The position numbers were made by a program. From a virus (Duplodnaviria > Heunggongvirae > Uroviricota > Caudoviricetes): DNA of 48,880 nt. Location: the IMG/VR virus record IMGVR_UViG_2877274432_000013. One strand, given 5' to 3'. Numbering within the stretch: position 1 is the first letter of the stretch; each line of letters opens with the position of its first letter. This document shows, piece by piece, positions 43,786-46,700 of the stretch.

Positions 43786-46700
43786 TGATCAGGATTGCGG
43801 CGCTACTCTCAATACTCTTAACTACCAGCGCCAATTCTGAATGCTGGATTGTCACAAACCTGCACGGGTACGGGGCAATGAATGGCGATCGTTACGAGTT
43901 TACAAAAGACAGCACGGAAGATTCCGTTTTTCACGTAACAATAAATGGCGATAAATCATCAGTTTATGAATCAGTTTCTGGCGTCTATCCAGAGATGAAA
44001 TACACTGCTTTGTCATCGAACACTATGGTAGGAGAATACCAGTCTGGAGGAGGAATAACCGTTGAAACCTGGTCAATCACTACAGACAAAAAAGCTCTTT
44101 ACTCCAAAGTAATGAACATCCCAGGTATGCAACAACTTACATCAACCAAATCCTTTGTTGGTGATGTAGTCGGAACCTGCAACCAGTAATCCTCACCTCA
44201 ATTTCGACAACCAAAAAACAAACTATTTTCCGTTTAAAAACAATGGAGTTTGTTTTTCACGCCCATTTTTACAATATTTCTTGTTTACAACATACAATCT
44301 TTCTTGTAATTTTAAGCCATCAGCAGGACGCACTAACCACCATTGAAGGTGAGGCTCTTAAAAATTTAGCCCTGAAGAAGGGCAGCATTCAAAGCAGAAA
44401 GCTTTGAGTAGCGCGAAATGCAGCTGCAAGACAGCAACCGTGGAGATAAGCATCACGGCGCGTTACTCAAAGCTAACTGACAGGAGAATCCAGATGGATG
44501 CACAAACACGCCGCCGCGAACGTCGCGCAGAGAAACAGGCTCAATGGAAAGCAGCAAATCCCCTGTTGGTTGGGGTAAGCGCAAAGCCAGTTAACCGCCC
44601 TATTCTCTCGCTGAATCGCAAACCGAAATCACGAGTAGAAAGCGCACTGAATCCGATAGACCTTACAGTGCTGGCTGAATACCACGAACAGATTGAAAGC
44701 AACCTGCAACGTATTGAGCGCAAGAATCAGCGCACATGGTACAGCAAGCCACGCAGTGAAATGGGTGTGACTTGTGTTGGTCGCCAGAAAATGAAATTAG
44801 GCAGCAAACCACTTATTTGAGAGGAATTAATATGTCATCAATCCGCTTAACTACGAGAATGAAAGAGGAAATCGCTCGTAACGCTTTAATTAAGTCTGGG
44901 GTTTTCACTGAACTTGAAGAAGTAACAAAGTTAAAGAACCAGCTTGCACTTGACGCCAGAGTTATTGCGTTTGGCGGTAAAAAGAAAACTGAGGAAGTGG
45001 ATCAGTTATCATCCAAGTTGGTAGCTATAAGTGAAGAACTTGGAAAGATGGGATGTTCATTTTACTCATACGATGTTCGTTCTACTTCAATTTATCTTAC
45101 TGTATCTGGCAGAAGGGTTGGATGGCTTCCATATGGGAAAGACGGCAACGGCGAAGATATATTGCTCCCTACTCCGAACAAAGATAAATGCATGTTTAGC
45201 GCAGAACACGAAATAACAAAAAGGTTTGATGAAATCTGCGCATTGCAACAAAAACTTGAAGCCAAGAAAAAGGATATCGAATCAAATGTATGGGCTGCTT
45301 TGAACTCAGTCACAACAGTTAAGCGACTTATTGAAGTTTGGCCTGAAAGCAAAGAATTGCTACCAAAAGAAGCAGATAAAGCAAGTACAGCACTTCCTGC
45401 TTTACGGGTAGAAGATTTGAATAAGATGATTGGACTTCCTTCCGAGGCCGCATAGTCGGCCTTTATTTTTGGCACTAACAACAGAATAAACACTGCACTG
45501 TGTATTCATTCCAACGAGTGAATACACGGAGCAATGTCGCTCGTAACTAAACAGGAGCCGACTTGTTCTGATTATTGGAAATCTTCTTTGCCCTCTAATG
45601 TGAGGGCCTTTTTATATGCATACCAATAACGCTTCACTCGAGGCGTTTTTCGTTATGTATAAATAAGGAGCACACCATGCAATATGCCATTGCAGGGTGG
45701 CCTGTTGCTGGCTGCCCTTCCGAATCTTTACTTGAACGAATCACCCGTAAATTACGTGACGGATGGAAACGCCTTATCGACATACTTAATCAGCCAGGAG
45801 TCCCAAAAAATGGATCAAACACTTATGGCTATCCAGACTAAATTCACTATCGCCACTTTTATTGGCGATGAAAAGATGTTTCGTGAGGCCGTCGACGCTT
45901 ATAAAAAATGGATATTAATACTGAAACTGAGATCAAGCAAAAGCATTCACTAACCCCCTTTCCTGTTTTCCTAATCAGCCCGGCATTTCGCGGGCGATAT
46001 TTTCACAGCTATTTCAGGAGTTCAGCCATGAACGCTTATTACATTCAGGATCGTATTGAGGCTCAGAGCTGGGCGCGTCACTACCAGCAGATCGCCCGTG
46101 AAGAGAAAGAGGCAGAACTGGCAGACGACATGGAAAAAGGCCTGCCCCAGCACCTGTTTGAATCGCTATGCATCGATCATTTGCAACGCCACGGGGCCAG
46201 CAAAAAAGCCATTACCCGTGCGTTTGATGACGATGTTGAGTTTCAGGAGCGCATGGCAGAACACATCCGGTACATGGTTGAAACTATTGCCCGCCACCAG
46301 GTTGATATTGATTCAGAGGTATAAAACGGATGAGTACAGCACTCGCAACGCTGGCAGGGAAGCTGGCTGAACGTGTCGGCATGGATTCTGTCGACCCACA
46401 GGAACTGATCACCACTCTTCGCCAGACGGCATTTAAAGGTGATGCCAGCGATGCGCAGTTCATCGCATTGTTGATCGTCGCCAACCAGTACGGCCTTAAT
46501 CCGTGGACGAAAGAAATTTACGCCTTCCCTGATAAGCAGAACGGCATCGTTCCGGTGGTGGGCGTTGATGGCTGGTCCCGCATCATCAATGAAAACCAGC
46601 AGTTTGATGGTATGGACTTTGAGCAGGACAATGAATCCTGCACATGCCGGATTTACCGCAAGGACCGCAATCATCCGATCTGCGTTACCGAGTGGATGGA

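What the first reader, a model, noticed from the sequence alone, without database searches (positions are those of the whole stretch)
44832..45455. Unknown 207-aa protein in the early-left accessory slot between N and cIII
In lambda this interval holds sieB, ral and ea10 (exclusion, anti-restriction, ssb). Here a single unrelated 207-aa soluble protein with a strong ribosome-binding site and its own terminator replaces them. Genes in this slot are made immediately after infection or induction and often counter host defences.
Basis: partly seen in the sequence, partly recalled or inferred. Interest (0 to 1): 0.55.

Follow-up and report, generated by a model that had tools for sequence, protein, structure and literature searches.

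The report
Nmad5-family early gene after N
The 207-residue protein encoded right after the phage's N gene is real and is probably made very early, but it belongs to an already catalogued, widespread phage family (Nmad5) whose biochemical role nobody has shown.

Summary
The ORF is exactly as described: ATG 44832 to TAG 45455, 207 aa, GAGG ribosome-binding site, 11 nt after the N stop codon, ending in a terminator hairpin. It replaces lambda's sieB-ral block, and ea10 is also missing. It is not an orphan. It matches Pfam Nmad5 (PF18757) over its full length (E 1e-71) and PHROG 1965. The same cassette sits between N and cIII in HK542, HK244, mEp235 and Stx1 phages. It occurs in 211 of 5,426 complete E. 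coli genomes, named there 'Nmad5 family putative nucleotide modification protein'. The family has about 2,300 clusters at 50% identity, nearly all single-domain proteins of about 200 aa. A confident AlphaFold model (pLDDT 85.5) has no relative in the PDB, and I saw no obvious catalytic motif among the conserved residues. Across 27 phage lineages its neighbours are replication, recombination and immunity genes (PolA, nucleases, SSB, helicases, cI-type repressors). Base-modification enzymes are neighbours only in M6-like phages and cyanophage Pam3. My best reading, at low confidence, is a non-enzymatic, immediate-early accessory protein of DNA metabolism or host takeover. An anti-defence role is neither supported nor excluded; one paper links a homologue to escape from Tmn defence. 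Verdict: already catalogued, function open, moderate-to-low interest.

The parts
44240..44307 (+). Three 434-type operators (oL3 44240-44253, oL2 44271-44284, oL1 44294-44307) that mark the leftward early promoter pL. Transcription runs towards higher coordinates in this window.
   Evidence: The pattern ACAANNNNNNTTGT is found 5 times against 1.07 expected. The positions correspond to the annotated oL1-3/pL of phage 434, which aligns with this stretch at 95%.
44369..44383 (+). nutL boxB hairpin, GCCCTGAAGAAGGGC.
   Evidence: Read from the sequence. The terminator scan picked it up as a palindromic stem. The assignment as lambda nutL boxB comes from my own knowledge of lambda and from the position of the 434 nutL annotation.
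44494..44820 (+). Lambda-type antiterminator N gene (108 aa, starting MDAQTRRRERR).
   Evidence: ORF list. It is 94% identical to lambda N DNA. The last ~25 nt differ from lambda and travel with the downstream cassette.
44821..44824 (+). Ribosome-binding site GAGG, 7 nt upstream of the ATG.
   Evidence: Read from the sequence.
44832..45455 (+). The finding: a 207-aa single-domain Nmad5-family protein (PF18757, PHROG 1965).
45444..45473 (+). Intrinsic-terminator-like hairpin plus T-run that overlaps the stop codon. The left arm lies in the gene's 3' end. The right arm and T-run lie in flank shared with lambda (downstream of ral), HK542 and Stx2a phages.
45590..45656 (+). Two further terminator-like hairpins (45590-45607 and 45628-45647, each with a T-run) before cIII. 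The first is conserved in lambda, HK542 and Stx2a phages. The ea10 deletion junction is at 45617/45618.
45664..45841 (+). cIII thermoregulator RNA element (45664-45722) and the cIII gene (45677-45841), the next genes of the operon.
   Evidence: Rfam RF01804, 88.5 bits, E 3e-21. ORF list.

Best explanation
The ORF encodes a bona fide member of the Nmad5 family (identity confidence about 0.97). It probably belongs to the pL immediate-early transcript together with N: pL/oL, nutL, N, an 11-nt spacer, Nmad5, then the first terminator-like hairpin found downstream. If so, it would be made on infection or induction without needing N antitermination.

Proposed mechanism (inferred, about 0.4). It is not an enzyme of base modification. 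It is a small binding or adaptor protein of the phage's early DNA-metabolism programme. A basic N-terminal helical part and a very conserved C-terminal module (motifs WPExxELLP and LNxxIGLP) would bind DNA, or a phage or host replication/recombination protein, and so help or protect replicating phage DNA. The gene is dispensable for basic phage viability.

Shown: family membership, gene order, and the neighbourhood statistics. Inferred: expression timing, the binding role, and the identity of any partner.
For: Family membership:
- Full-length Pfam Nmad5 match, 241.7 bits against a cutoff of 27.
- PHROG 1965, E 6e-83.
- RefSeq names for relatives that are 94-99.5% identical.

Transcription unit:
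- Operators and nutL lie upstream.
- The scan finds no + strand terminator-like site between 44000 and 45444.

Not enzyme-like:
- The AlphaFold model (pLDDT 85.5) is a helical bundle with a beta-hairpin and a small C-terminal helical module.
- Family-wide conserved residues are R5, I14, A18, R43, G48, G49, G93, T162, L166, W170, P171, E172, E175, L176, P178, L196, N197, G201 and P203. By inspection only, I saw no obvious nucleophile/acid-base or metal-binding pattern among them.
- Residues 1-50 have a calculated pI of 9.8.

Genomic context:
- In 27 lineages of diverse viral contigs, the genes within 3 positions are cI-type S24 repressors, DNA polymerase A, DUF2800/PD-(D/E)XK nucleases, Enc34-type SSB, AAA_24, VapE and SNF2. 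None of the 25 most frequent neighbour families listed is a modification enzyme other than one thymidylate synthase (Thy1).
- Individual loci show the same picture.
- In Serratia, Providencia and Aeromonas prophages and a further unidentified temperate-phage contig (L176), it lies in the operon just after the repressor and ahead of recombination or replication genes, as it does here ahead of gam-bet-exo.

Dispensable:
- In Stx2a phages a 1,310-bp IS3-family element splits the gene after about codon 35.
- Deleting the Dhillonvirus homologue gives viable phage, and that homologue was toxic to clone (PMC11846954).
Against: - No binding partner, DNA binding or phenotype has been shown for any family member.
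- Neighbourhood evidence cannot separate 'helps replication' from 'manipulates the host while replication starts'.
- In M6-like Yuavirus and cyanophage Pam3 the gene is conserved between aGPT-Pplase1 and a ThyA-like gene. That is the basis of the family's name and would fit a modification-linked role at least there.
- Lambdoid phages have no polymerase of their own, so any partner would have to be a host protein or DNA.
- pN/pS of 0.42 among E. coli alleles shows only moderate constraint.
- The consensus scan cannot see Rho-dependent terminators, so N-independent expression is an inference.
Confidence: 0.4

Rival explanations
1. Counter-defence protein. An immediate-early protein that binds and blocks, or decoys, a host anti-phage system, occupying the slot where lambda keeps ral (restriction alleviation).
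For: - The slot is mosaic and elsewhere holds exclusion or anti-restriction genes: sieB and ral in lambda, a Nun-C-terminal protein in 434.
- The gene is probably expressed with N, before the first terminator-like hairpin.
- In Dhillonvirus, a single Lys-to-Glu change in the Nmad5 homologue lets phages escape the Tmn defence system. The wild-type gene was toxic to clone (PMC11846954).
- The gene is accessory: it is split by an IS in Stx2a phages and present in only 3.9% of complete E. coli genomes.
Against: - Deleting the Dhillonvirus gene did not change sensitivity to Tmn, so the wild-type protein is neither the sole trigger nor an inhibitor of Tmn.
- The family is large (about 2,300 clusters at 50% identity) and its motifs are conserved across phages of enterobacteria, Vibrio, Pseudomonas, Bordetella, Aeromonas and a cyanobacterium. 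Known anti-defence proteins are usually narrow and fast-evolving.
- In virulent phages it lies inside replication modules.
- No anti-defence library was available to search. PADLOC, which holds defence systems, gives no hit.
Confidence: 0.25
2. Nucleotide or DNA base-modification factor, as the Pfam and RefSeq name suggests. It would be an enzyme or an obligatory cofactor that helps install or tolerate a modified base in phage DNA.
For: - The gene order aGPT-Pplase1, Nmad5, ThyA-like hydroxymethylase is conserved in Pseudomonas Yuavirus PAC5 and SN1 and in cyanophage Pam3.
- The gene is adjacent to a thymidylate synthase in N4-like Pylas and lies near ThyX in one metagenomic phage.
- An Aeromonas prophage has a Dam-type methylase two genes downstream.
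- This window carries a nin-region N6-adenine methyltransferase (39482-40069) in the other early operon.
Against: - The window has no aGPT-Pplase, 5-hmdU kinase or hydroxymethylase next to the gene. Its neighbours are N, cIII, kil, gam, bet and exo.
- Across 27 lineages, none of the 25 most frequent neighbour families listed is a modification enzyme other than one thymidylate synthase.
- The paper that assigns the steps of M6 and ViI thymidine hypermodification to a kinase, aGPT-Pplases, a radical-SAM enzyme and a PLP enzyme never mentions Nmad (PMC8989533).
- The predicted fold has no enzyme relative, and I saw no obvious catalytic motif.
Confidence: 0.15
3. Prophage-borne exclusion or defence gene, functionally replacing sieB. 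It would be expressed to protect the lysogen against other phages.
For: - It replaces sieB in the same slot.
- It is intact in a prophage in which bet, exo and int look damaged.
Against: - No own promoter was found upstream; the scan gives only one weak promoter-like hit, at 44010.
- pL is repressed in a lysogen.
- The gene occurs in virulent phages (N4-like, Yuavirus, Dhillonvirus).
- PADLOC gives no hit.
Confidence: 0.05

Closest known systems
Pfam PF18757 Nmad5 / PHROG 1965 / RefSeq 'Nmad5 family putative nucleotide modification protein'. Examples: HK542 gp33 (YP_007151768), HK244 orf01, the mEp235 and Stx1-phage orthologues.
   Same: The domain match is full-length and the protein has the same length. 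The conserved motifs are the same. In HK542, HK244, mEp235 and Stx1 phages the slot between N and cIII is the same, at 97-99% DNA identity.
   Different: Nothing of substance. Here the cassette is joined to a lambda-type N, 434 immunity and a Red recombination module. HK542 instead has lambda-like immunity and Erf/Abc2. In this window ea10 is also missing.
Nmad5 of thymidine-hypermodifying phages (Pseudomonas M6, SN1 and PAC5; cyanophage Pam3).
   Same: Same Pfam domain (E 1e-31 to 1e-33). Also a single-domain protein of about 190-210 aa, located in the early DNA-synthesis region.
   Different: Only about 26-37% identical, mostly in the C-terminal 85 residues. There the gene is flanked by aGPT-Pplase1 and a ThyA-like gene. 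Here there are no such partners.
Dhillonvirus Nmad5 (PhiSMS22 CDS6; Pubbukkers gp7), in which a missense change gives escape from the Tmn defence system.
   Same: Same domain (E 7e-56). It is 35% identical over residues 103-203. It is non-essential and possibly toxic.
   Different: It is 381 aa, with a 127-aa N-terminal extension. It is a lone gene on the opposite strand inside the head-gene block, not in an early operon.
Lambda Ral, SieB and Ea10, and the 434 Nun-C-terminal protein (other occupants of the same slot).
   Same: Same position in the pL operon immediately after N. All are accessory genes.
   Different: No detectable homology to the two that were tested: hhalign probability 4% against the 434 protein and 0.2% against Ea10. 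Ral and SieB were not compared. The sizes differ.

Membership tests
Pfam Nmad5 (PF18757) | Match to the family profile above the curated gathering score, covering the whole domain. | tested here: met
   241.7 bits against a cutoff of 27. Residues 4-203 match profile positions 1-206 of 206. The PHROG 1965 match is also full-length.
Pfam Nmad5 (PF18757) | Family-wide conserved positions and motifs: N-terminal RLT, the GG turn, WPExxELLP, and C-terminal LNxxIGLP. | tested here: met
   All are present: R5-L6-T7, G48-G49, W170-P171-E172...E175-L176-L177-P178, and L196-N197...I200-G201-L202-P203. These are the most conserved columns in alignments of 29, 90, 142 and 71 relatives.
Pfam Nmad5 (PF18757) | Stand-alone protein of about 200 aa with a single domain. 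| tested here: met
   The protein is 207 aa. The top 150 representatives are nearly all 190-220 aa. All 120 distant relatives listed carry only PF18757.
Pfam Nmad5 (PF18757) | Genomic association with nucleotide or base-modification enzymes. This is the reason for the name, taken from Iyer et al. 2013 as I recall it; that paper was not available here. | tested here: not met
   The neighbours in the window are N, cIII, kil, gam, bet and exo. The association is seen only in Yuavirus and Pam3 and is absent from the 25 most frequent neighbour families listed for 27 lineages. This is a contextual feature, not a criterion of homology, so membership stands.
Anti-defence proteins (generic class) | Demonstrated inhibition of, or escape from, a defence system through the wild-type protein. 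| not testable with these tools
   Only indirect literature exists: a missense allele of a homologue escapes Tmn, while deletion has no effect. No anti-defence profile library was available.
Ribbon-helix-helix DNA-binding proteins (considered for residues 1-47) | Sequence or profile similarity to solved RHH proteins. | tested here: not met
   A profile of the N-terminal 50 residues searched against all PDB sequences gave no RHH protein at E<=10. Pfam gave no RHH hit at E<=1.

The most novel reading that the evidence does not exclude
Nmad5 is a structurally new class of immediate-early phage protein that engages host immunity directly. It would be either the thing that KAP-NTPase (Tmn-type) systems monitor or a broad-range inhibitor of a conserved host nuclease or defence hub. 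That would explain why lambdoid phages carry it in the ral/sieB slot and why a point mutation in a homologue defeats Tmn.
Probability: 0.2. Interest if true: 0.6.

Novelty: already known. Interest (0 to 1): 0.3.

Why it matters
On its own this locus adds little. The same cassette is already in GenBank phages and about 4% of complete E. coli genomes under a family name.

The wider point is that Nmad5 is a large family, conserved across many phage types, with a confidently predicted fold that has no solved relative and no tested function. The neighbourhood census here suggests that its name ('nucleotide modification associated') describes only a minority of its contexts.

The lambdoid copies sit in genetically tractable phages (HK542, mEp235). 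They are probably expressed with N and are non-essential, which makes them a convenient place to find out what the family does. That includes its unexplained link to Tmn defence.

Tried and rejected
- Sequence and profile searches of the PDB with the protein, a 90-sequence profile and an N-terminal profile found nothing.
- NCBIfam and PADLOC gave no hits.
- The N-terminus (RLTxxIxxxIxxNAxxKxG) resembles a ribbon-helix-helix motif by eye. Nothing supported this and I dropped it.
- Homology to other occupants of the slot (434 Nun-C-terminal protein, lambda Ea10) was rejected by hhalign.
- A search for domain fusions as functional clues found none among 120 distant relatives.
- The first viral-contig scan returned only near-identical E. 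coli copies. I repeated it with a distant member placed first.
- The genome-contig scan failed for lack of a usable conserved block.
- Iyer et al. 2013, the source of the Nmad names, is not held. Full-text searches for PF18757 and phrog_1965 found nothing.
- Papers that mention HK542 or mEp235 say nothing about this gene.
- I could not map the Tmn-escape residue (K296 of PhiSMS22) onto this protein. Only a related Dhillonvirus sequence was available and its residue 296 is not a lysine. The region corresponds roughly to residues 103-118 here.
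Full report
**1. The observation**

An ATG at 44832 opens a frame that ends with TAG at 45453-45455, giving 207 aa. GAGG at 44821-44824 lies 7 nt before the ATG. The stop codon of N is at 44818-44820, so the two genes are 11 nt apart. A terminator-like hairpin follows the gene: stem 45444-45463, 7 pairs of which 5 are G-C, then TATTTTTGG. It overlaps the stop codon.

BLAST against lambda shows the following:
- Window 44468-44795 is lambda N.
- Window 45452-45617 is the lambda spacer between ral and ea10 (34087-33923).
- From 45618 the window continues at lambda 33522, just before cIII.

So the sieB/orf28/ral block is replaced by this one gene, and ea10 is missing as well.

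A four-way alignment adds a detail. The right arm and T-run of the terminator belong to sequence shared with lambda, HK542 and an Stx2a phage. The left arm is provided by the last codons of whichever gene lies upstream.

Rfam finds the cIII thermoregulator at 45664-45722, which confirms the downstream neighbour.

**2. The transcription unit**

The immunity region is that of phage 434: the cI and cro translations are and the alignment to 434 is. Three 434-type operators lie at 44240, 44271 and 44294. They correspond to oL3-oL1/pL in the annotated 434 genome. The nutL boxB hairpin GCCCTGAAGAAGGGC is at 44369-44383.

The consensus scan finds no + strand terminator-like hairpin between 44000 and 45444. 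I therefore infer that this gene is on the same immediate-early transcript as N and does not need antitermination. The scan cannot detect Rho-dependent terminators, so this remains an inference.

**3. Identity**

- The protein matches Pfam Nmad5 (PF18757) over the whole domain: E 1.1e-71, 241.7 bits against a cutoff of 27.
- It matches PHROG 1965, 'unknown function', at E 5.8e-83.
- NCBIfam and PADLOC give nothing.
- The same gene, at 97-99% DNA identity, sits between N and cIII in HK542, HK244, mEp235, Stx1a phages, PhiR12 phages and Kapi1. There it is mostly labelled 'hypothetical protein'.
- It is present in 211 of 5,426 complete E. coli genomes, where PGAP calls it 'Nmad5 family putative nucleotide modification protein'.
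- Relatives at 42-80% identity occur in Cronobacter, Klebsiella, Raoultella, Enterobacter, Pantoea, Erwinia, Providencia and Serratia.
- An exhaustive profile search finds 2,306 representatives of 50%-identity clusters at E<=0.001. Nearly all the best 150 are 190-220 aa.
- All 120 distant relatives listed with precomputed domains carry only PF18757.
- Among 54 distinct E. coli alleles, 52 are intact and pN/pS is 0.42.

**4. Structure**

AlphaFold2 with a 29-sequence alignment gives mean pLDDT 85.5 and pTM 0.70. The model has these elements:
- three N-terminal helices (8-22, 24-47, 50-72);
- a beta-hairpin region (86-100, with short strands up to about 122);
- a long helix (127-158);
- a small helical module (163-182);
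- a low-confidence linker (183-191);
- a short tail helix (193-199).

The columns conserved across the family are R5, I14, A18, R43, G48, G49, G93, T162, L166, W170, P171, E172, E175, L176, P178, L196, N197, G201 and P203. Conservation is strongest in the last 55 residues, in the motifs WPExxELLP and LNxxIGLP. The first 50 residues are basic, with a calculated pI of 9.8. By inspection I saw no obvious catalytic motif. That is a judgement from the residue list, not a test.

**5. Genomic context across the family**

tblastn against 50,697 phage records finds the family in 378 records. Besides lambdoid and Stx phages these include Vibrio, Pseudomonas (Yuavirus), Bordetella, Klebsiella and Salmonella N4-like phages, Edwardsiella eiAU, Dhillonvirus, an Acinetobacter podophage and cyanophage Pam3.

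Individual loci:
- Vibrio Athena1: just upstream of a replication O gene.
- Klebsiella Pylas: between a thymidylate synthase and a PD-(D/E)XK nuclease followed by a primase.
- Edwardsiella eiAU: after the helicase-primase.
- Serratia and Providencia prophages: the first called gene after the S24 repressor, on the same strand, in Providencia ahead of DUF2800, an Enc34-type SSB and PolA.
- A temperate-phage contig (L176): ahead of AAA_24, DUF669 and a helicase.
- An Aeromonas prophage: ahead of a Dam methylase, an SNF2 helicase and an SSB.
- A 61-kb metagenomic phage: between ThyX and an exonuclease followed by PolA.

For a census I took 80 diverse IMG/VR loci. I called ORFs, grouped the Nmad5 copies into 27 lineages, and clustered the neighbours. 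The recurrent neighbour families are:
- DNA polymerase A (9 lineages, usually 1-2 genes downstream);
- a DEAD/ResIII helicase (7);
- DUF2800 PD-(D/E)XK nuclease (7);
- Enc34-type SSB (4, usually the gene immediately upstream);
- DUF3799;
- ParB-HTH;
- RecT.

A Pfam scan of 138 genes within 3 positions, one locus per lineage, lists HTH/S24 repressors, PolA, PDDEXK/DUF2800, Enc34 SSB, AAA_24, VapE and N peptide at the top. None of the 25 most frequent families listed is a base-modification enzyme other than one Thy1.

**6. The modification association**

The family name comes from its neighbourhood in hypermodifying phages. In Yuavirus PAC5 and in cyanophage Pam3 the order aGPT-Pplase1, Nmad5, ThyA-like gene, 5'-deoxynucleotidase ... 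DNA polymerase is conserved. SN1 has the same cluster (PMC9476957).

The paper that assigns the steps of M6 and ViI thymidine hypermodification to a kinase, aGPT-Pplases, a radical-SAM isomerase and a PLP decarboxylase does not contain the string 'Nmad' (PMC8989533).

In this window nothing of that kind lies beside the gene. The only DNA-modification gene I saw is a nin-region N6-adenine methyltransferase with an NPPY motif at 39482-40069, in the rightward operon.

I therefore read the modification link as a feature of one branch. It may be a by-product of the gene's general residence in DNA-synthesis modules.

**7. Experimental hints**

- In Dhillonvirus, phages that escaped the Tmn defence system carried a Lys-to-Glu change in the Nmad5 homologue. 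Reverting it restored sensitivity. Deleting the gene did not give escape, and the gene could not be cloned, apparently because it is toxic (PMC11846954).
- That homologue is 381 aa, with the Nmad5 domain at residues 128-380. It lies alone on the opposite strand among head genes.
- In 48 Stx2a-phage records the lambdoid gene is split. Residues 1-37 and 34-207 lie 1.3 kb apart. The insert is a 1,310-bp IS3-family element encoding 108-aa and 296-aa proteins, IS629-like by my recollection.
- Both facts say the gene is dispensable for phage viability.

**8. Explanation and rivals**

Best explanation (about 0.4 for the mechanism, about 0.97 for the identity): an immediate-early, non-enzymatic binding or adaptor protein of the phage's DNA-metabolism or host-takeover programme. 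It would act through its conserved C-terminal module and basic N-terminus.

Rivals:
- Counter-defence protein (0.25). The slot and the Tmn hint favour it. The breadth and conservation of the family, and the fact that the deletion has no effect on Tmn sensitivity, count against it.
- Base-modification factor (0.15). The Yuavirus and Pam3 synteny favours it. The context in this window, the neighbour census, the fold and the published pathway work count against it.
- Lysogen-protecting exclusion gene (0.05).

No rival is excluded by computation.

**9. Comparison with what is known, and verdict**

This is a member of a known, named family. It is nearly identical to proteins already deposited, and it occupies a slot already seen in sequenced lambdoid phages. 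It is unrelated to the tested alternative occupants of the slot, the 434 Nun-C-terminal protein and lambda Ea10.

Novelty: already known as an entity, with function unknown. Interest is modest (0.3). What is worth keeping is that the family is large, has a predicted fold with no solved relative, is probably misnamed for most of its members, and is experimentally approachable in HK542 or mEp235.

Noticed in passing
window 46748 (bet); 47461 and 47636 (exo); 48148, 48269, 48430: There are six single-base indels relative to lambda within 3.1 kb that is otherwise 97% identical. All lie at short homopolymer runs. They split bet into ORFs of 155 and 136 aa and break exo into several ORFs. This is either real decay of a defective prophage or sequencing/assembly error. 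The Nmad5 ORF nearby is intact.
   Followed up: partly
window 1-862, 3592-4855, 7756-8980; also 6451-7116 and 4851-5573: Three 100%-identical copies of an IS3-family insertion sequence at least 1.2 kb long (272-aa rve transposase) are present, the first cut by the window start. There is also a fourth IS3-like transposase ORF. The 241-aa ORF at 4851-5573 matches only the first third of the phage-integrase domain, so the integrase looks truncated. The prophage looks IS-ridden and probably cannot excise.
   Followed up: partly
window 1626-2795 (-), 9999-10916 (+), 10922-12439 (+), 9020-9438: O-antigen modification genes are present: an Acyl_transf_3 acyltransferase, a family-2 glycosyltransferase (GtrB-like) and an adjacent 506-aa ORF with no Pfam hit. 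The stretch 9020-9438 is 98.8% identical to the int/attP end of HK542 (SfX-type integrase, thrW site). This suggests a serotype-converting prophage of Shigella or E. coli with a Baseplate_J-type tail (14466-15662) joined to a lambda/434 early region.
   Followed up: partly
L175 (Stx2a phage Stx2_716) 1196-2504; corresponds to window 44935-44938: In 48 Stx2a-converting phage records the Nmad5 gene is interrupted after about codon 35 by a 1,310-bp IS3-family element (108-aa and 296-aa ORFs, IS629-like), with a 4-bp overlap at the junction. These phages also keep ea10 and have a different N whose last ~80 nt are shared with this window.
   Followed up: yes
window 45444-45463 compared with lambda 34087-34110: The recombination junction between the Nmad5 cassette and the lambda-type flank falls inside the terminator hairpin. 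Each upstream gene (ral in lambda, Nmad5 here) supplies its own left arm to pair with a shared right arm and T-run.
   Followed up: partly
window 45617/45618: ea10 (about 400 bp) is precisely absent here and in HK542, but present in lambda, 434 and Stx2a phages. The sequence after the second terminator hairpin differs between the two groups.
   Followed up: partly
window 43785-44189 (+): In place of lambda rexA/rexB, the gene after cI corresponds to the phage 434 gene annotated 'repressor protection protein (Hex)'. Its product begins with a lipoprotein-like signal, [20 protein letters not shown].
   Followed up: no
window 39482-40069 (-): A nin-region DNA N6-adenine methyltransferase (NPPY motif), as in phage 434. 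It is absent from lambda at this position.
   Followed up: no
L093-L172 (diverse IMG/VR loci): A recurrent module of DUF2800 nuclease, an unannotated ~300-aa protein (no Pfam hit), Enc34-type SSB, Nmad5 and DNA polymerase A is seen. The ~300-aa protein occurs in 4 lineages, usually 3 genes upstream of Nmad5, and is another conserved unknown of this replication module.
   Followed up: no
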